From an uncultured Candidatus Binatia bacterium (GTDB taxonomy: Bacteria > Desulfobacterota > Binatia > UBA9968 > CAXXLF01): a stretch of DNA of 64,000 nucleotides. Shown here in pieces: positions 32,936 to 40,753 of this stretch (position 1 is its first letter; each line of letters starts with the position of its first letter). Location: assembly GCA_965218425.1 (NCBI GenBank), contig OZ244621.1, forward strand, positions 2,432,001-2,496,000, given 5' to 3'. The notes under the pieces were generated by a model. It searched no databases, was not told the DNA's origin, and saw nothing but the letters and a program-made list of their open reading frames with translations. Position numbers and translations under genes: made by a program.

Positions 32936-33454
32936 TTGCGCCTGCACTGATTCATTCGAATCGCGCTGTTACCAATAAAGATTGCCTATCATAGCCAGTT
33001 GTCCATGGTGTTGACGTGGCGCTGAGTCTAGTGAACCGGCTCACCGTGGCAGGTCATCTTGCCCAATTGAAGGGGGCGACGCAGTCTCGTTCCTCTTTTG
33101 TCGCTTCCTGTCTTTGGAATCTGATGCGCCTACGATACCGTTGACGTTTGGTCGTACAAGTTTCACCGCATTCAAGTTCGATCTTAACTCGATTGTCATC
33201 CAATCCCCATAATCGGTTAACAAACGCTGGTCATAATAGATCCGTAAACTTGAGTATAATGGAAATGAGGCTCAATTTTAATCTTGATCTGATGCGCAAC
33301 CTTCACCCGCAAACACGGAACGCTCCGGACGTGAGTCCGGGAATGAACGTTCCGAGCTTCCCCCGCGGCAGGCGTGTAGGCGGACGGAAATAGTTGGAAA
33401 TGGGCCGGAAACCGGCTGAATTTTCCGGGGTATTTTGAAACCAGAACCGGCTCA

Positions 33455-33552
33455 GGCTTGCCCTCTTGCTATTTTGAGTTCCCTTCCCTTTCGGATTCCA
33501 GCTTGTATTGTACCCATTCTCTCTTGGAATGTCCTGTCCATTTGGACGCGGT
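33455..33552 (+). repeat. Copy 1 of a ~98-bp imperfect direct repeat
   Basis: Aligns end to end with 35651-35747; last 29 bp identical. Confidence 0.9.
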
Positions 33553-33569
33553 CCACCAAAGCATGGATG

Positions 33570-33760
33570 CGATCCTTTCTCGTCAATGGCATTTAGCTGG
33601 GCGTATCGTTTGTGATGGTCTATCCCGACGTAAAGCATGGGGTCTTCTCCTTTCAGGTTTGATGGCCGCTGCAACCGCCATCCTGCTGGAGCTTGACCCC
33701 TTTTTCATGTTACCTGACCCCAATTATCAGCGTTTGATAAGTCGCGCCCTTTTCAACCAA
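33570..33760 (-). mobile_element. IS110-family remnant: 5' end of the transposase plus upstream non-coding end
   Basis: AAAGGAG RBS and ATG 33638: MLYVGIDHHKRYAQLNAIDEKG, matching the N-terminal GID motif of DEDD IS110 transposases; truncated after about 22 codons. Outer boundary approximate. Confidence 0.65.
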
Positions 33761-33798
33761 AGGAGGCCAACCAAGGCGGCGTTCCACTGAGCCTACCA

Positions 33799-34383
33799 CT
33801 ACCTTGCCGTCCACACCATCTGTATGTAATTGCGGGAGCTAACAAGATTAGTACAAAATTCAGCACCTCGTGTAGCGAGCGGCGCAAGCACACTTAAGAC
33901 GCACGCTTCAAAATTCTTTGAATGTATTTCCCACTTACTCCAATCGTAATATCTATTATCAACGAAATCCTTTCGATGCTCCTTCAAGAACTCATCCAAT
34001 GTTCCGTCGTGTTTTGTGCCTTTCCCTTTCAAACTTTCCCAACAATCGCGTGCTTCGCCTTGTGCCTTTTTTGCATCATTTATATCCTTAGCGTCGTCGG
34101 TCAGTGAAAAAAACAAGTCGTCTAACTCGTGCCTGTGATCGTAGGTGCCTTGATCACTCAGATTCCGTTTCAATGACTTCAGGGCAACTTCGATGGCAAA
34201 AGGAAACATCGTATATATAATGTGCGACAACCCAATAATTTCTTGTTCCCTCCCAGTTCGATTACCGATTGTAGAAATAGTGAGTGAACCGGCTGTCGTT
34301 CGTTGACTAACTTGATTTACCAGCCCCTTCAAAGCAACATATAACTCTAACGCCCTTAACCCATTCAATTTATCCTTACTCAT
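33799..34383 (-). CDS. AT-rich hypothetical protein, HEPN-like
   Basis: FAIEVALKSL...HRHELDDLF...FVDNRYY fits the ExxLK / HxLxxL / RY HEPN pattern. Confidence 0.6.
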   Translation of the reverse strand: MSKDKLNGLRALELYVALKGLVNQVSQRTTAGSLTISTIGNRTGREQEIIGLSHIIYTMFPFAIEVALKSLKRNLSDQGTYDHRHELDDLFFSLTDDAKDINDAKKAQGEARDCWESLKGKGTKHDGTLDEFLKEHRKDFVDNRYYDWSKWEIHSKNFEACVLSVLAPLATRGAEFCTNLVSSRNYIQMVWTAR

Positions 34384-34552
34384 AACCTAACTCACTGTGT
34401 AATTTGGTATATAATTCCCATAAGAAGTCCCCAAAATTCCAAAAAAAATCCACCAGTTCAAACTGAGGCAGTACCCTCGAAGCCGATCCGTCGGACTGCT
34501 CTCAGCGCGTGTCCGGCAGTGTGTCAAGTTCCTCAATTCGAGCGGACAGCAC

Positions 34553-34885
34553 TTACTCAGCCACAGGCCGTTCCAGAGCATCCTTCAGCAAGGGGAGGTC
34601 GTCCTGAATGGTAAGCCATACGTACTCCAAATCAAGCTGGTAGTAATCGTGTACCGCGCGGTCACGGAACCCCGCGATCTGTCTCCACGGAAGGGAGACA
34701 CGCTCCTTGAATTCATCCGACAATCGCTTCGACAGCTCGCCGATCACAGCAAGCTGCATGATGACTGCGCTCTGCACGACTTCGCTAGCGATAAATGCGT
34801 CCTTGTCGAGGCCCGCTACAAAGCGCTCGATCTTTGCGACTGCGTCCACGATCTGCTGCCGGTAGACATCATCGGACTTCTTCAT
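34553..34885 (-). CDS. hepT: HepT-like (DUF86) HEPN RNase toxin
   Basis: IGE, PWRQIAGFRDRAVHDY (Rx4HxY), VW. Confidence 0.9.
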   Translation of the reverse strand: MKKSDDVYRQQIVDAVAKIERFVAGLDKDAFIASEVVQSAVIMQLAVIGELSKRLSDEFKERVSLPWRQIAGFRDRAVHDYYQLDLEYVWLTIQDDLPLLKDALERPVAE

Positions 34886-35162
34886 AGACGGTTTGGAGTT
34901 CCCGGAGGGCGAAGGGCTTCACGTGGAGATTCAGGCTGTTCCTGGTAACGAGGTCCACCTTGCATCCGAGTGCGGTCTCGAGTTCGTCGTTCAACGCAAA
35001 GAATTTGAGCAGACTCACCGGTTGCTTGAGATCGACGAGGACATCAACATCACTCTCCGGCCTATCCTCGCCGCGGGCGACAGATCCAAAGACACCGGCG
35101 TATTGCACGCCGTTGCGTTCGAGGATCGGGGCCGCTTTCTGCCTGATTTCATTGAGGGTCAT
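34869..35162 (-). CDS. mntA: MntA-like minimal nucleotidyltransferase antitoxin
   Basis: FGSVARGEDRPESDVDVLV (GSx10DxD), KVDLV; overlaps hepT. Confidence 0.92.
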   Translation of the reverse strand: MTLNEIRQKAAPILERNGVQYAGVFGSVARGEDRPESDVDVLVDLKQPVSLLKFFALNDELETALGCKVDLVTRNSLNLHVKPFALRELQTVYEEVR

Positions 35163-35304
35163 GTCCTTAAGTATATACGATCAATGGCAGGATTTGACAA
35201 GTTCCCGGATTCCCGCAAGACAGGACTATCCCGCGCCCTGAGTTTCCGTGGGCAGACCAAAGGCCGAGGGTGCGTGGTCAGAGGCTTGATCCCTGCCGGT
35301 GTTT

Positions 35305-35500
35305 GCCGCCGGCGGCAGGCTTCGCTGCCGTTGTACAGCTCGGTCGCCAGTTGTAGCAGACTGAGCTTCCTTCGTACAGCTTTCTTGGTAGTTGTCATTT
35401 GATCCCTCCTGTTCAGGTTTGTTTTTGGTCATCCAAACCCTAGCAGGAGCGCATGGCCGCTGATCTTCCCTCGAATGTTGTACCACTTTCTAAGTTAGAA
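35305..35500 (-). mobile_element. IS481-family remnant (5' end of the transposase)
   Basis: AGGAGG RBS and ATG 35398: MTTTKKAVRRKLSLLQLATELYNGSEAC, resembling the IS481 N-terminal HTH; similarity lost afterwards. Confidence 0.6.
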
Positions 35501-35650
35501 GTTGGGCCGTTTTCGGCGGTGGCAGGTCAGTTGGGATTTGGCCGACAGAGGGTTCTGGCAGTGGTTAGGGAAAGCAGCTCCCCTGGCTCGACAAAGCGCG
35601 TCCTTACGACGAGCCTGGCTATTGCAGCTATAAAACCGAAACCAGTGTCC

Positions 35651-35747
35651 GGCTTGCCTTTTTGCTATTTGGGTTCCCTTCCCCTTCGGATTCCGGCTTG
35701 TATTATACCAATTCTCTTTTGGAATGTCCTGTCCATTTGGACGCGGT
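35651..35747 (+). repeat. Copy 2 of the ~98-bp imperfect direct repeat
   Basis: Matches 33455-33552. Confidence 0.9.
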
Positions 35748-36091
35748 GTTCTAATTGGCCCAACCCACGGCTCATCACCCCAGCATCACGGCTTGAATAT
35801 CGGTTAAGCGAACGAAAATAATTGGAAAATCCGACAAAATCAGATGGAAACGGGCCGGAAACCAGCCGGATTTTAAGGGGCGTTCAGGGCTCGAAAAACG
35901 GCCCTGAAAGGGCCGTTAAATCGAAACCGGGGCGCGAAAGGTCGAACACCTTGAATACGGCGTTTTTCAAGCGACCCCTATGATGCGTCCTCCAACCTTC
36001 CATAGAGGATTGACTCGAGGCGCTCAATTCGAGTAACCTACTCTCGCCGGGGACGGATATGGCCACAGGTCGCTCCCGAAAGGAGAATCGG

Positions 36092-37111
36092 ATGAAGTGT
36101 AAACCAGGGATAGTAATCGCGGTTGTGATTTCATTGCTCACGGCACAGGCAGGCTTCGCAGGCGAGAAAGAACCGGCCAAGGCAAAGGCTTTTTACAACG
36201 GCAAGACCATCAATTGGATGATCGGGTCGTCACCGGGAGGATCCGTGGACGGAACGTCCCGGCTGACCGCGCCTTTCTTCGAAAAGTATACGGGCGCTAA
36301 AATCGTGCTTCAGAACCGGCCCGCGGGCAGCGGCGTGGGCATGTTCAATCATCTCTATAACAGGACCCGACCGGACGGATTGACCGTGGGTTGGCATCTC
36401 GGCTCGACTCAAACGCTGAGCAGGGTTTCGGGGCGAGCGGGTATTCAATACGATCTGGAGAAATTGCACTGGATCGGCGTGGTCGCTCCCACGGAAAACA
36501 CCCTTCTCGCTTATAAGCCGAGGTTCAAATCGCTGCAGGATCTGAAGCGAGCCGATAAACCCCTTCAATGGGGCCTGACTCGCTTGGGCGGCAACAATTA
36601 TTTTATCGGTCTCACACTACGCGAGGTGTTGGGCCTCAACGTGAGGTTCGTTCCCGGCTACCGGGGCAGCGCCTCGGTGCGGCAGGCCCTGATGAGCGGA
36701 GAGGTGGACGTGGCCGCCTATGGGGCGAACCTCTACGCCGCAGCCATCAAAGACGGGTTGGTCGTGCCGTTATTGCACATCGGACAAAGGCGAGCCCCTG
36801 CGGCGCCTGATACGCCCACGCTCTATGAAACCGTCAAGAATATTCCTCAGCCGTTGGACAGCTGGATCAGAATCGGGGAAGTAGGCTACTTTATGGCAAC
36901 CAATCCAGGGGTGCCGAAGGAAAGAGTCGAGTTCCTCAGGTGGGCGTTAAGGCAAGTCACACGGGATCGCGAGTTCACGAATCAGGCCAAGAAAAAAGGA
37001 TATGTAATCGGTTACCTTTCGCCGGATGAGGCGTTTCCCATCGTGCGAAAACTCCTGCACCCGTCCCAGAAAGACCGGGAAAAACTTGACCGGATGCTGA
37101 AAGGCGAGTAG
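36092..37111 (+). CDS. Bug/TctC tripartite tricarboxylate transporter solute-binding protein (orphan)
   Basis: Signal peptide; FYNGKTI, SPGGSVD, NRPAGSG, PDGLTV, VPGYRGS, ALMSGEVD. Confidence 0.88.
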   Translation: MKCKPGIVIAVVISLLTAQAGFAGEKEPAKAKAFYNGKTINWMIGSSPGGSVDGTSRLTAPFFEKYTGAKIVLQNRPAGSGVGMFNHLYNRTRPDGLTVGWHLGSTQTLSRVSGRAGIQYDLEKLHWIGVVAPTENTLLAYKPRFKSLQDLKRADKPLQWGLTRLGGNNYFIGLTLREVLGLNVRFVPGYRGSASVRQALMSGEVDVAAYGANLYAAAIKDGLVVPLLHIGQRRAPAAPDTPTLYETVKNIPQPLDSWIRIGEVGYFMATNPGVPKERVEFLRWALRQVTRDREFTNQAKKKGYVIGYLSPDEAFPIVRKLLHPSQKDREKLDRMLKGE

Positions 37112-37178
37112 GAACCGCCGCCGATATACACTCTTGCCGATCCAGATCTCATGGGCCGCCGGGGGGTAATCAGAACGC

Positions 37179-37922
37179 TCAGTCTTCAGACTTTTTTCGA
37201 ACCAGGACCCGCACGTGACCCTCTTCGCTCGTTGCGCGCTTATCCAGGTCAAAGAGCTGCGTGGCTTCTATGAGCCCGCTCAGCTTCGCATAGCCGTAAT
37301 TACGGGAATCGAAGTCGGAAAACCGCTGCGCGATCCGGTTTGCGACCGTTCCATGATCAGCCCAGCCTGACTCGTCCGCGGCGGCTTCGACAACGGAGCT
37401 GAGCAGTCCGATCAGCTTCGAATCGCGTTTCAGCTGGTCCGTGGTCTTTCGGCGGGTCTCGGGTTGCGATTTATCGGGCTGGACGAGAATCTCCGTGAAT
37501 ATGAACTTGTCGCATGCGGACACGAAGGCGCGCGGTGTCTTGTTCTCGCCAAATCCGTAAACGCGAAGCCCTTCTTCCCGAATTCGAGAGGCGAGCCTGG
37601 TAAAGTCGCTGTCGCTCGATACAAGGCAGAACCCCTGGAACCGCCGTGAGTATAGAAGGTCCATGGCGTCGATAATCATCGCGCTGTCGGTGGAGTTCTT
37701 GCCAACCGTATATCGAAATTGCTGGACGGGTTGTATCGCATGGCCAAGCAACACGTGTTTCCACGAGTTCAGCTGAGGCTGGGTCCAGTCGCCGTAGACC
37801 CGACTGACCAATGGAACCCCGTAATTCGATATCTCCGAGATCAGGCCCGTTACAATGCCGGGCGACGCGTTATCCGCGTCTATCAGCACTGCCAGCTTAT
37901 CCGGCATAGCTTCCTGCTCCAT
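37179..37922 (-). CDS. NYN-domain nuclease with C-terminal OST-HTH/LOTUS domain
   Basis: VLIDADN, YGDW, GKNSTD...IDAMD, VSSDSDF, ACDKF, FDSRNYG. Confidence 0.92.
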   Translation of the reverse strand: MEQEAMPDKLAVLIDADNASPGIVTGLISEISNYGVPLVSRVYGDWTQPQLNSWKHVLLGHAIQPVQQFRYTVGKNSTDSAMIIDAMDLLYSRRFQGFCLVSSDSDFTRLASRIREEGLRVYGFGENKTPRAFVSACDKFIFTEILVQPDKSQPETRRKTTDQLKRDSKLIGLLSSVVEAAADESGWADHGTVANRIAQRFSDFDSRNYGYAKLSGLIEATQLFDLDKRATSEEGHVRVLVRKKSED

Positions 37923-37930
37923 GGTAAATT

Positions 37931-38088
37931 CCTAAACGCGGGGGTCAGGTCCGGCCGAACTGTTGCCCAAACGCCGGTTAAATAGCACAATAGACCCAAC
38001 GAACTATAACGCGCCGTGTTTCAACACTACCCCGAACGCTAGGCCATGAACGATAAGACCGCCGCCATGGACCTGGACGAGTTATATG
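37931..38088 (-). other. Degenerate attC-like site upstream of the NYN gene
   Basis: Minus strand CATATAAC-TCGTC-CAGGTCC ... GGACCTG-ACCCCCGC-GTTTAGG, ending 8 nt before the ATG. Confidence 0.35.
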
Positions 38089-38404: not shown

Positions 38405-38653
38405 TCACCAAATCATCCTGACCACGCGATAGTGTTCCTGCAAGAACTTCTTGGCGGCCTCTTCGGTCTCTTTTTCGCCGGGGCCGGTGAAGCGGTGGGG
38501 GATGCCTTCCCGGCCCAACAGCATACAGGTGTTATCGAGGGGCCGGCCGGTGTTGAAGAGGATATAGCCGGCCCAGGTGTTTTTTTCCCGCACCGTCTTG
38601 ATCTCCACCCGGGCGACTCCCTTGAGTGAGGGGACCTCAACTTCGAACTTCAT
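38405..38653 (-). CDS. 82-aa hypothetical protein
   Basis: GC-rich third positions; decayed paralog at 32851; divergent from the AhpD gene. Confidence 0.7.
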   Translation of the reverse strand: MKFEVEVPSLKGVARVEIKTVREKNTWAGYILFNTGRPLDNTCMLLGREGIPHRFTGPGEKETEEAAKKFLQEHYRVVRMIW

Positions 38654-38764: not shown

Positions 38765-38793
38765 TTGACAGCGAAAAATCATTGTGATCTACT
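38765..38793 (+). promoter_or_regulatory. Sigma70 promoter of the AhpD-Rieske pair
   Basis: TTGACA-N17-TCTACT with extended -10 TG. Confidence 0.55.
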
Positions 38794-38848
38794 CCCCACG
38801 TCCCGGCTTGAGATATCGAAATCCCCCCGCGCAAAGGAGGTTCGGACC

Positions 38849-39556
38849 GTGCCCTGGATCAAAATCATTCGGGAACGCGAGTCGGAGGGCGAGCTGAAGG
38901 AAGCCTATGAGAAGATGCGTGAAGTGAACCTCTCCTATGGGGAGACCTTCGGCAGCTCCGGCAACGCGGCCCCGGGACCCCATCCCGTGTCGCCACCCGA
39001 GCTTTCCAGCTTGAACCCGTTGTCCATGCTCTATGGGCGCCAGCTGATGATGCACGTCATGCGCGGGCCGTCGCGCCTCACGCCGGCGCAGCGGGAGATG
39101 ATCGCCACCGTAACCTCGTTGACGGCCAACTGCCGCTATTGAACGGTGGGTCACGCAGGGGCCCTGCGTAGAGTGGGTGGAGATGATCTCACGGCGGAGT
39201 TTATTCAAAACGACTGGCGCAAGGCAGAGCTCACGGAAGCCGAATACGCCATGCTGGAGTGGGCGGCGAAGCTGACCCTTTCACCCGCCATGATGACAGA
39301 GAAGGACATTCAAAAGCTCAGGGACGTGGGCTGGACGGACCGGGACATTCTCGACATCGCCTCGGTGAGTGCTTACTTTAACTTTCGGCTGCGGATGGTG
39401 GATGGTCTGGGATTGGACGTGGCGGATGAGAACGCGGTGCGGGCCACGCAGGCGCGGCATCATGCGGCGGCCATGGCCAAGGAGCGAGGTTTGGCGCTGC
39501 CCAATGACGTCTGGGGTGTGGGGGAACAGGCGAAAAAGGCCAAGACAAAGGCTTGA
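38849..39556 (+). CDS. AhpD/carboxymuconolactone-decarboxylase-family peroxidase-like selenoprotein (CxxU), 235 aa
   Basis: AAGGAGG RBS and GTG 38849; REMIATVTSLTANCRY-TGA-TVGH continues in frame into KLTLSP, LRDVGW, AYFNFRLRMVDGLG; hairpin downstream of the TGA. Confidence 0.88.
39140..39172 (+). promoter_or_regulatory. Candidate bacterial SECIS element
   Basis: TGA + 10 nt + ACGCAGG-GGC-CCTGCGT perfect 7-bp stem with a G-first loop. Confidence 0.7.
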
Positions 39557-39598
39557 GCCGGGCAGCGGTGGGTTGCCCATGGACAGGAGGACCGCCCG

Positions 39599-40753
39599 AT
39601 GGCTTTGACCCGTGAGGAAAACGATCTCTTTACCCGGGTTGGACCGGGGACCCCCGCGGGCCGGATGATGCGCTGCTATTGGCATCCCATAGGTTTCGCC
39701 AAGGAGTTGAAGGATAAGCCGAAACGTCGGAGGCTTCTGGGCGAGGACCTGGTGCTGTTTCGTGACGATAAGGGAAGGTTGGGCCTCCTGGGCTTATACT
39801 GTCCCCACCGCGGCACTTCTCTCGAGCTCGGTTACATCGAGGACGGAGGTATTCGCTGTTGTTACCATGGCTGGTTGTTCGATGTGGAGGGGCGTTGCCT
39901 GGAACAGCCCGCAGAACCTCCAGGCAGCAGTTTCAAGGAGCGGGTCGGGCTGCCCGCATACAGGGCGGAGGAGATCGGCGGAGCCATTTTCGCTTATCTC
40001 GGTCCCGATCCTGCTCCGCTGTTGCCGAGGTATGACGTCCTGGTGCGGGAGGACGGGGTCCGCTCCATGGGGGCCCGGGTTCAAAGCTGCAATTATTTCC
40101 AGGCGGTGGAGAACACGGTGGACCAGCACCACTTCAGGTTCCTGCACAGAACTCCCACGTCGCGTCAATGGAGAGACGTGGAACTCGAATCCGAGGTGAC
40201 GGAGTTCGGGATCCGCGACCGCTATACGCGTCGTGTCGGCAATGAAAAATACACGACGGTGAGCTACTTCGTGATGCCCACCATGAACAAGACCGGTTAC
40301 CACCAGGAGGAGGATCATCCTGCCGGCTTCAGGGCCGCTCACCCGGGTTATGAAGCCATGCGTTGGCGTGTTCCCATGGACGATTTCCACACTCTCCATG
40401 TAACGGTGGCTTTCAGTCCGCTGGTGAACGGCAGGCCCGCGCCGGCTCTGCCCCCCGACCGACAGGAGGAGGGGATCACCGAGACGCCGCCGGGGGTCTA
40501 TCGGTGGGATGAGTCCATCGGCGCCGTTGCGCGGGGAGACCAGGACCGCTCCGCCCAGGAAAGCCAGGGGCCGATCTTCGACCGGACCACGGAACATCTC
40601 GGCGCGTCGGATAAAGGGGTCATTCTGTTGCGGAACCTGTATAAGCGGTCCATCGAGTCCGTGAAAAACGGTTCCGATCCCATGGGCGTTGTCAGAAGTC
40701 CGGCGAAGAATGAAATAATTGAAATTATTCCACGTGAGGAAGTGATCGGTTGA
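39599..40753 (+). CDS. Rieske non-heme iron oxygenase alpha subunit (phthalate dioxygenase/LigX-like)
   Basis: RVGPGTPAG, CPHRG...CCYHGW, ENTVDQHH...LH, QD...QESQG, EHLGASD; AGGAGG RBS. Confidence 0.92.
   Translation: MALTREENDLFTRVGPGTPAGRMMRCYWHPIGFAKELKDKPKRRRLLGEDLVLFRDDKGRLGLLGLYCPHRGTSLELGYIEDGGIRCCYHGWLFDVEGRCLEQPAEPPGSSFKERVGLPAYRAEEIGGAIFAYLGPDPAPLLPRYDVLVREDGVRSMGARVQSCNYFQAVENTVDQHHFRFLHRTPTSRQWRDVELESEVTEFGIRDRYTRRVGNEKYTTVSYFVMPTMNKTGYHQEEDHPAGFRAAHPGYEAMRWRVPMDDFHTLHVTVAFSPLVNGRPAPALPPDRQEEGITETPPGVYRWDESIGAVARGDQDRSAQESQGPIFDRTTEHLGASDKGVILLRNLYKRSIESVKNGSDPMGVVRSPAKNEIIEIIPREEVIG

What the first reader, a model, noticed from the sequence alone, without database searches (positions are those of the whole stretch)
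38765..40753. Selenoprotein paired with a reductase-less Rieske oxygenase
Seen: one promoter, the Sec-AhpD gene, a 42-nt gap with AGGAGG, then a phthalate-dioxygenase/LigX-like oxygenase; no reductase or ferredoxin gene adjacent; an orphan Bug carboxylate-binding protein lies about 1.7 kb upstream. Known: Rieske oxygenases need an electron donor and release peroxide when uncoupled; CMD-fold proteins can be peroxidases, decarboxylases or act on aromatic intermediates. Inference: an undescribed selenium-dependent aromatic catabolism module in which the Sec enzyme detoxifies peroxide, processes the product or supports turnover.
Basis: partly seen in the sequence, partly recalled or inferred. Interest (0 to 1): 0.7.

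Follow-up and report, generated by a model that had tools for sequence, protein, structure and literature searches.

The report
Selenoprotein recurrently beside Rieske oxygenases
A gene for a predicted selenium-containing redox enzyme sits in front of one of this bacterium's 88 iron oxygenase genes; related genes sit next to different oxygenases in marine Chloroflexota, so the enzyme likely clears oxidants leaked by oxygenases rather than being a dedicated partner, and the missing reductase is a genome-wide trait.

Summary
38849-39556 is one AhpD-like (TIGR01926) CxxU selenoprotein gene with a covarying SECIS hairpin, in a genome with SelA/B/D and tRNA-Sec. An intact phthalate-dioxygenase-like Rieske oxygenase gene follows 42 nt later.

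The 'dedicated module' reading does not hold:
- 'Reductase-less' is genome-wide: 88 oxygenase genes, and no match to three oxygenase-reductase profiles.
- The Bug gene is a recent duplicate, absent here in two relatives.
- The pair is genus-specific. The oxygenase's orthologues have no AhpD neighbour (0 of 8 loci), and one close relative kept AhpD while the oxygenase decayed.

What is new is a family-level link. In 16 Rieske-rich Dehalococcoidia genomes, 18 of 39 TIGR01926 loci (7 of 19 after collapsing synteny) directly flank a Rieske oxygenase, against 4% of genes in this genome. The partners are several unrelated oxygenases, and some loci are arrays of up to five selenoprotein copies.

Best reading (0.45, inferred): an optional helper that reduces oxidants from uncoupled turnover. 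Rivals are chance co-residence and a Bmp8-like dehalogenase. The scan noted this selenoprotein family on other DNA before; my look-ups found no note of the Rieske link.

The parts
38765..38793 (+). Promoter-like element: TTGACA, 17-nt spacer, TCTACT (non-consensus -10)
   Evidence: Invariant in three relatives; not scored by the consensus scan; function inferred
38834..38840 (+). Shine-Dalgarno sequence of the AhpD-like gene
   Evidence: Sequence; purine-rich site kept in relatives
38849..39556 (+). AhpD-like / peroxidase-related selenoprotein gene, 235 aa, Glu83, Cys95-x-x-Sec98, His102
   Evidence: TIGR01926 119.4 bits only when read through; E83, C95 and position 98 invariant in 34 aligned homologues; model pLDDT 93.5, best folds 2prr Z 21.7 and 6k40 Z 21.1
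39140..39142 (+). In-frame TGA at the second Cys of the CxxC motif, predicted selenocysteine codon
   Evidence: TGA or TGC at this column in homologues; tRNA-Sec, SelA, SelB, SelD in the genome
39153..39169 (+). SECIS-type hairpin: 7-bp stem, 3-nt loop starting with G, beginning 11 nt after the UGA
   Evidence: 100% of 154 cells paired in 22 homologues, 2 pairs with compensatory change, slid controls 25-56%; folding energy alone is not unusual (z about 0)
39557..39598 (+). 42-nt intergenic gap with AGGAGG at 39585-39590; no terminator-like site
39599..40753 (+). Rieske non-heme iron oxygenase alpha subunit of the phthalate 4,5-dioxygenase/LigXa-like group, 384 aa; all metal ligands present; Thr220 in place of the phthalate-binding Arg244
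   Evidence: Pfam Rieske + LigXa_C; best PDB 7fhr E 5.6e-55, 7fjl E 9.4e-44; C68/H70, C87/H90, D175, H178, H183, D316; Arg244 mapping
35877..38018 (.). NOT part of the unit: recently duplicated segment carrying the Bug/TctC gene (36092-37111 +) and a NYN-domain gene (-)
   Evidence: 98.6% identical copy at G000:C1:1920469-1922611; absent at this site in G001 and L110

Best explanation
This is a predicted CxxU selenoprotein gene of the known AhpD-like family lying 42 nt upstream of one of 88 Rieske oxygenase genes, likely co-transcribed, and likely serving as an optional helper that reduces peroxides or other oxidants released when such oxygenases turn over unproductively. Shown: gene structure, conserved catalytic residues, covarying hairpin, Sec machinery, recurrence of AhpD-Rieske adjacency with different oxygenases, absence of standard oxygenase reductases genome-wide. 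Inferred from M. tuberculosis AhpD chemistry: the Glu83/His102 relay activates Sec98, Sec98 attacks the oxidant, Cys95 resolves it, and a cellular dithiol (dihydrolipoamide or thioredoxin) recycles it. Inferred history: the selenoprotein gene came from Dehalococcoidia into this one genus and came to lie beside a native oxygenase. The oxygenase would draw electrons from a shared, still unidentified carrier encoded elsewhere, and its substrate is likely not phthalate.
For: Catalytic set matches the AhpD proton relay (PMC3141380 passages; alignment). Top folds are peroxidase-related/AhpD proteins, Z 21.0-21.7. A Rieske dioxygenase releases reactive oxygen species by uncoupling (PMC9171724 abstract). 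Adjacency: 18 of 39 loci, 7 of 19 groups against 4.1% of all genes and 8.7% of large-family genes in G000; binomial p 6e-6 and 7e-4. The partners differ between loci: PDO-like clade X, other PDO-like genes and NDO-type alpha subunits, upstream, downstream or divergent. That fits a generic service better than a substrate-specific step. The second TGA-containing CMD gene of G000 lies two genes upstream of Rieske oxygenase genes. The link is dispensable: lost in L110, L012, L014, L117 and in G011.
Against: No activity was measured. G000 already has a catalase-peroxidase and 15 AhpC/TSA-family matches, 7 with a TGA, so one more peroxidase is not obviously needed. The Cys homologue PA0269 has only weak H2O2 activity. 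G011 has 0 of 6 loci adjacent. In 15 other genomes of the same order only 1 locus has a Rieske piece within 1.5 kb. If the right background is 15-20% (catabolic-island genes reach 10-50% in G000) the enrichment weakens to p 0.016-0.07, and to 0.12-0.28 after dropping the pseudogene case and the genome picked for its pair. Arrays of up to five diverged copies, one lacking His102, suggest substrate diversification rather than simple peroxide removal. G002 and eight other genomes from the Rieske searches had no TIGR01926 match at 1e-8.
Confidence: 0.45

Rival explanations
1. Chance co-residence: both genes are common cargo of oxidative-catabolic islands in genomes with dozens of Rieske paralogues, and this pair has no functional link. 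The selenoprotein does general oxidant defence.
For: Oxygenase orthologues (58-68% identity) sit with ABC transporter genes and a second oxygenase, with no AhpD in 8 of 8 loci. L110 lost the oxygenase and kept AhpD. The 93%-identical orthologue of the L026 oxygenase has no AhpD within 1.5 kb in G011. In G011, 4 of 6 AhpD loci lie within 10 kb of a Rieske gene but none is adjacent. An AhpD-like protein protects against HOCl/HOSCN in Pseudomonas (PMC7950407 passages).
Against: Seven separate adjacency groups, two of them kept in 5 of 5 and 7 of 7 genomes scored (the first has 2 syntenic genomes without the oxygenase, scored as a separate group). The rate equals that of expected pathway partners in G000 (dehydrogenase-like 6 of 16, ring-cleavage-like 7 of 23; families named from recall of their sequences). 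The pair is kept in G000 and G001 at 84% DNA identity.
Confidence: 0.25
2. Pathway enzyme: the selenoprotein acts on the oxygenase's substrate or product, most interestingly as a selenol-based reductive dehalogenase like Bmp8, or as a reductase of an organic hydroperoxide intermediate.
For: The debrominase Bmp8 is the next fold match after the uncharacterised peroxidase-related proteins (Z 18.4, rmsd 2.7 A, 183 residues); a review calls Bmp8 a dehalogenating CMD homologue (PMC7918430 passages). Tandem arrays of 2-5 diverged copies with a variable insert at residues 30-50. The sister clade's gene cluster carries a reductive-dehalogenase-like gene (TIGR02486 115 bits, below the 160 cut-off), and another lies between an AhpD gene and a Rieske gene in L027 (122 bits). 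One RNA run labelled sponge metagenome holds a 165-nt exact match to the gene; that sponges are rich in brominated aromatics is recalled.
Against: Only 15% identity to Bmp8 against 25-31% to peroxidase-related proteins. The Bmp8 structure title points to Cys82; that this is the first Cys of its motif is recalled and could not be checked (not held), whereas Sec here is the second position. The partner oxygenases differ between loci. No dehalogenase-like gene lies near this pair in G000.
Confidence: 0.2
3. The selenoprotein is the missing electron-transfer or reactivating partner that binds the oxygenase.
For: The genome lacks FNR-type and GR-type oxygenase reductase signatures; PF00970 is also absent from G001, G007 and G018.
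Against: CxxU centres do two-electron chemistry whereas Rieske centres take single electrons (established knowledge). G002, 97% complete with 49 matches to the oxygenase, has no TIGR01926 gene. Other carriers exist in G000: a Rieske ferredoxin, a small [2Fe-2S] ferredoxin and a NuoF-like flavoprotein.
Confidence: 0.05
4. The TGA is a true stop (split or dead gene), or the terminal TGA is also read through to give an AhpD-Rieske fusion, since the two genes are in frame.
For: The two genes share one frame across the 42-nt gap.
Against: The internal TGA with its hairpin is conserved across phyla and alternates with TGC. The terminal TGA is not conserved: G001 has TAG then TGA in the gap, and L110 is out of frame.
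Confidence: 0.02

Closest known systems
AhpD-like selenoprotein family (TIGR01926 / COG2128, CxxU; PMC13188914 table passage, PMC2398784 table passage)
   Same: Scores above the TIGR01926 cut-off; CxxU motif; SECIS hairpin; Sec machinery present
   Different: About 45-residue C-terminal extension and a variable insert at residues 30-50 relative to solved members; tandem arrays and Rieske neighbours were not found in the passages or searches read
M. tuberculosis AhpD, P. aeruginosa PA0269, D. radiodurans AhpD (6k40), 2prr/2oyo/2pfx/3c1l
   Same: Fold (Z 21-21.7 to the peroxidase-related group, 10.6 to Mtb AhpD 1knc) and the Glu-Cys-x-x-Cys-His relay
   Different: Sec at the second Cys; Tyr for His132; no ahpC adjacent; activity untested
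Phthalate 4,5-dioxygenase PDO-KF1/DB01 with PDR, RO-CH34 (7fjl, 7fhr), LigXa
   Same: Rieske and mononuclear iron ligands and bridging Asp; PDO-like alpha subunit with no beta gene adjacent
   Different: Thr at the Arg244 position; 384 aa against about 440; no PDR-type reductase signature anywhere in the genome
Expanded ring-hydroxylating dioxygenase paralogues of SAR202 (PMC6946804, section 12 read)
   Same: Dozens of alpha subunits, mostly annotated as phthalate 4,5-dioxygenase, few beta subunits
   Different: Here in a Binatia-like genome; that paper's main text has no occurrence of 'selen' or 'peroxid'
Bmp8 tetrabromopyrrole debrominase (6ohi/6ohj)
   Same: CMD/AhpD fold, Z 18.4; acts beside oxidative enzymes on an aromatic ring
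   Different: 15% identity; Cys enzyme in a biosynthetic cluster; catalytic position not shown to match

Membership tests
AhpD-like selenoprotein (TIGR01926) | Whole-protein score above the curated cut-off | tested here: met
   119.4 bits against 81.8
AhpD-like selenoprotein (TIGR01926) | UGA aligned to the second Cys of CxxC in Cys homologues | tested here: met
AhpD-like selenoprotein (TIGR01926) | Bacterial SECIS hairpin just after the UGA | tested here: met
   7 pairs, 100% paired in 22 sequences, 12 cells with compensatory change
AhpD-like selenoprotein (TIGR01926) | SelA, SelB, SelD and tRNA-Sec in the genome | tested here: met
AhpD-like selenoprotein (TIGR01926) | Selenium incorporation and peroxidase activity | not testable with these tools
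   Needs labelling and assay
Rieske non-heme iron oxygenase alpha subunit | CxH...CxxH cluster ligands, 2-His-1-Asp iron site, bridging Asp | tested here: met
   against the ligands named in PMC8649396
Phthalate 4,5-dioxygenase (PDO/PDR) | Arg244 binding a phthalate carboxylate | tested here: not met
   Thr220 at that column by chained pairwise alignments
Phthalate 4,5-dioxygenase (PDO/PDR) | Arg207 binding the second carboxylate | tested here: inconclusive
   The loop aligns unreliably
Phthalate 4,5-dioxygenase (PDO/PDR) | Cognate FMN/[2Fe-2S] reductase | tested here: not met
   0 matches to PF00175 and PF00970 in a 97%-complete single-contig genome
Bmp8-type debrominase | CMD/AhpD fold with a redox CxxC | tested here: met
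   Z 18.4, rmsd 2.7 A over 183 residues
Bmp8-type debrominase | Matching catalytic position and halopyrrole pocket | not tested
   Primary paper and review not held; no residue-level alignment obtained
Dedicated conserved Sec-AhpD/oxygenase module | Orthologous pair conserved beyond close kin | tested here: not met
   Pair only in G000 and G001; 0 of 8 orthologue loci of the oxygenase carry AhpD; other neighbours are non-orthologous

The most novel reading that the evidence does not exclude
Selenocysteine AhpD-like proteins are working partners of Rieske oxygenases in marine Dehalococcoidia and this Binatia-like genus, recruited at least seven times and expanded into arrays, and they act on the oxygenases' halogenated or peroxidised substrates as selenol-based, Bmp8/deiodinase-like reductases. 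That would be a selenium-dependent step in aerobic aromatic breakdown, in bacteria that run dozens of oxygenases without a standard reductase.
Probability: 0.18. Interest if true: 0.78.

Novelty: new variant of a known kind. Interest (0 to 1): 0.42.

Why it matters
AhpD-like proteins were the fourth most numerous selenoprotein family in the ocean survey table (299 sequences), and a 2026 review says the exact functions of such clustered selenoproteins are unknown. A repeated link to Rieske oxygenases gives a concrete, testable context for the family. Gene callers split these genes at the TGA, which may be why the link is easy to miss. Separately, a genome with 88 oxygenases and no recognisable oxygenase reductase poses an open question about their electron source. 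The single pair in this window is modest: both parts are known families and the pair is loose.

Tried and rejected
Bug gene as a module member: rejected (recent duplicate; G001 has a different Bug-like gene, 28% identical, just upstream of AhpD; L110 has none).

AhpD-Rieske read-through fusion: rejected.

Phthalate as substrate: disfavoured (Thr for Arg244).

Clade X as an ancestral fixed partner: the SAR202 upstream oxygenases form one clade (support 0.998), but close paralogues at 63-72% identity and the 93% orthologue in G011 have no AhpD within 1.5 kb, so the link is labile.

Catalase-lack argument: no monofunctional catalase in 5 of 5 and no Mn catalase in 15 of 15 genomes, but a catalase-peroxidase in 9 of 15 including G000, so it gives no support.

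Co-transcription: the one RNA run has a single 165-nt exact contig at 38828-38992 and nothing across the junction; contigs cannot show transcripts and DNA carry-over is not excluded.

Folding energy of the SECIS region alone is unremarkable.

Literature: AhpD+selenoprotein+CxxU gave 6 papers; Rieske oxygenase/AhpD/alkylhydroperoxidase/uncoupling/hydrogen peroxide (4 of 5 terms) gave 2 sestrin papers; AhpD+Rieske+oxygenase+alkylhydroperoxidase+gene cluster gave 0; Rieske/Binatia/UBA9968/dioxygenase/paralogs gave no listed paper with 'Binatia' among 20 of 36 shown. Subscription papers and supplements were not searched.

Complex prediction was not run, because the report does not claim binding. 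The careful tree did not finish; quick trees were used. One search was out of frame and one search printed nothing. The folded model carries one spurious C-terminal Cys from reading the final stop as Sec.

Full report
Observation. The AhpD-like gene is 38849-39556 with an in-frame TGA at 39140; a 42-nt gap with AGGAGG follows; the Rieske gene is 39599-40753. A TTGACA-17-TCTACT element at 38765 is invariant in the two nearest relatives although the consensus scan does not score it. No terminator-like site separates the genes. DNA contigs from two other runs cover the TGA and the junction. Co-transcription is inferred, not shown: the only RNA evidence is one 165-nt exact contig over the gene's 5' end in a run labelled sponge metagenome.

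The selenoprotein. Read through, the protein passes TIGR01926 (119.4 bits, cut-off 81.8); neither half does. Glu83, Cys95 and position 98 are invariant in 34 aligned homologues and His102 nearly so, matching the AhpD proton relay (PMC3141380 passages). The codon at 98 is TGA in most relatives and TGC in some. A 7-bp hairpin starting 11 nt after the UGA is fully paired in 22 of 22 sequences with compensatory changes at two pairs; the sequences are related and the structure was taken from them, so this supports but does not prove function. The genome (4.46 Mb, one contig, 97% complete) has tRNA-Sec, SelA, SelB and SelD. The model (pLDDT 93.5) best matches peroxidase-related proteins and D. radiodurans AhpD (Z 21.0-21.7), then the debrominase Bmp8 (Z 18.4). 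The family is catalogued as 'AhpD-like, TIGR01926, CxxU' (PMC13188914 passages; PMC2398784 passages; PMC1088965 search listing only).

The oxygenase. It has all cluster and iron ligands and is closest to RO-CH34 and PDO-KF1. It has Thr where PDO has the phthalate-binding Arg244 (PMC8649396 passages; mapping), so phthalate is an unlikely substrate. It is one of 93 Rieske-domain matches in the genome, of which I counted 88 as oxygenase alpha genes, two apparently frameshifted. The genome has 0 matches to PF00175, PF14759 and PF00970. It has one Rieske ferredoxin in the suf operon (operon named from recall of the sequences), one small [2Fe-2S] ferredoxin beside an IspH-like gene, and a NuoF-like flavoprotein. 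Seven full-length Pyr_redox_2 proteins were not annotated, so a divergent reductase is not excluded. 'Reductase-less' therefore describes the organism, not this operon. Large alpha-subunit expansions are described for SAR202 (PMC6946804 section 12).

The Bug gene. It lies in 35877-38018, a segment 98.6% identical to a second genomic copy, absent at this site in G001 and L110. It is not part of the unit.

Is this pair conserved? Only narrowly. Among 401 genomes of the class, 18 have a match at 1e-45, and only G001 (same genus, 88%) is above 60% identity. G001 has the same pair. L110, with the same flanking genes, keeps an intact AhpD (81%) followed by about 49 codons of the oxygenase. The oxygenase's orthologues (58-68%, one clade with support 1.0) lie in 8 loci of 5 genomes beside solute-binding proteins and, in most, a second oxygenase, with permease or CoA-enzyme genes in some and no AhpD in 8 of 8; some of these contigs are short. 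Of 15 sister-clade AhpD loci in the same order, 1 has a Rieske piece within 1.5 kb. The window's AhpD nests among Dehalococcoidia proteins (SH-aLRT 100 and 94), and a single clade with the order's other AhpD proteins is rejected (AU p 7e-58; 34 rows, quick tree, group named after seeing the first tree). Transfer from Dehalococcoidia into this genus is the inferred history. The name Binatia for the host is inferred from record titles in the same clade as same-order genomes and from earlier notes.

Is there a family-level link? Yes, moderately. I searched 34 genomes for TIGR01926. In the 16 Dehalococcoidia genomes with matches over the cut-off, collapsing tandem arrays gives 39 loci; 18 directly flank a Rieske alpha gene, or 7 of 19 after collapsing orthologous syntenic loci. 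Left out of that count: sub-cut-off matches, the 7 Binatia-like genomes, and genomes without a match over the cut-off. The seven groups are: arrays of 2-5 selenoprotein copies behind one or two clade-X oxygenases (5 genomes scored); a distant Sec clade divergent from an oxygenase in 7 of 7 genomes; L026; a decayed oxygenase behind L028; a closely coupled pair in G1098; a Sec gene before an NDO-type alpha gene in G1106; and a Cys form beside NDO-type genes in G1106 and G1107. In G000, 4.1% of genes and 8.7% of large-family genes flank an oxygenase, with single families from 0 to 50% (my own simple gene caller). Binomial p is 6e-6 and 7e-4 at those rates, 0.016-0.07 at 15-20%, and 0.12-0.28 at 15-20% when the pseudogene case and G1098 (picked after its pair was seen) are dropped. 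I chose the genomes, the control comes from another genome, and G011 scores 0 of 6. The second TGA-containing CMD gene of G000 lies two genes upstream of an oxygenase cluster.

Mechanism. The partners vary in class, order and orientation and are often lost, which points to a generic, optional service. A Rieske dioxygenase has been shown to release reactive oxygen species through uncoupling (PMC9171724 abstract), and AhpD-like Cys proteins show weak peroxidase activity or HOCl/HOSCN protection (passages). I put oxidant removal by Sec98/Cys95, recycled by a cellular dithiol, at 0.45. Against it, G000 has a catalase-peroxidase and 15 AhpC/TSA matches, and diverged arrays look like substrate specialisation. 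Chance co-residence in catabolic islands gets 0.25. A pathway role gets 0.2: the Bmp8 fold match and reductive-dehalogenase-like genes beside sister-clade AhpD clusters and in L027 keep a selenol dehalogenase open. Service as the missing electron donor gets 0.05, since G002 has 49 oxygenase matches and no TIGR01926 gene.

Verdict. Real genes, both of known families; the 'reductase-less module with a Bug protein' dissolves. What remains is a repeated, loose association of AhpD-like selenoproteins with Rieske oxygenases that my literature searches and look-ups of earlier notes did not find described. New variant of a known kind; interest 0.42.

Noticed in passing
G000 whole genome: 88 Rieske oxygenase alpha genes with no PF00175, PF00970 or PF14759 match; PF00970 also absent from G001, G007 and G018. 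The electron source for these oxygenases is unexplained.
   Followed up: partly
L013 2412-6526; also L016, L018-L021: Tandem arrays of 3-5 diverged Sec-AhpD genes, each with its own SECIS hairpin, behind one or two closely similar Rieske oxygenases; one copy has Asp in place of His102.
   Followed up: partly
L030 4261-10006; similar in L034, L035, L129, L130: Conserved cluster in same-order genomes: three Sec-AhpD genes, a Cys-less CMD gene, a Sec-OsmC gene, GST, and a reductive-dehalogenase-like 4Fe-4S gene or an IspH-like gene with a [2Fe-2S] ferredoxin.
   Followed up: partly
L163 5583-5903 (G000:C1:3494582-3494902): Second TGA-containing CMD gene (CxxU) missed by plain ORF calling, between a cupin and an ornithine-cyclodeaminase-like gene, upstream of NDO-type and PDO-type oxygenase genes.
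   Followed up: partly
G011:C1 495000-502000 and 899000-915000; G018:C1 867000-918000: About six further TGA-containing, longer AhpD-related genes per genome, each followed by a second CMD-like gene; below the TIGR01926 cut-off.
   Followed up: no
L258, L083, L106: Sister-clade Sec-AhpD gene followed by a solute-binding protein and a 105-aa Rieske ferredoxin in SAR202-like genomes; a possible shared electron carrier for their oxygenases.
   Followed up: no
window 33445-38018: Variable insertion absent from relatives: repeat/IS remnants, a HepT-like/nucleotidyltransferase toxin-antitoxin pair (34553-35162, -), and the duplicated Bug-NYN segment.
   Followed up: partly
L158 5067-6056 (G000:C1 near 3817000): Flavoprotein whose best match is the selenoprotein subtype of type III sulfide:quinone reductase (235 bits, below cut-off, model positions 2-320 of 406); may continue through a TGA.
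   Followed up: no
G000: 7 of 15 AhpC/TSA-family matches contain one in-frame TGA, pointing to a large selenoproteome.
   Followed up: no
window 38405-38653 (-): 82-aa gene with no Pfam or NCBIfam match, conserved upstream of the pair in G001 and L110.
   Followed up: no
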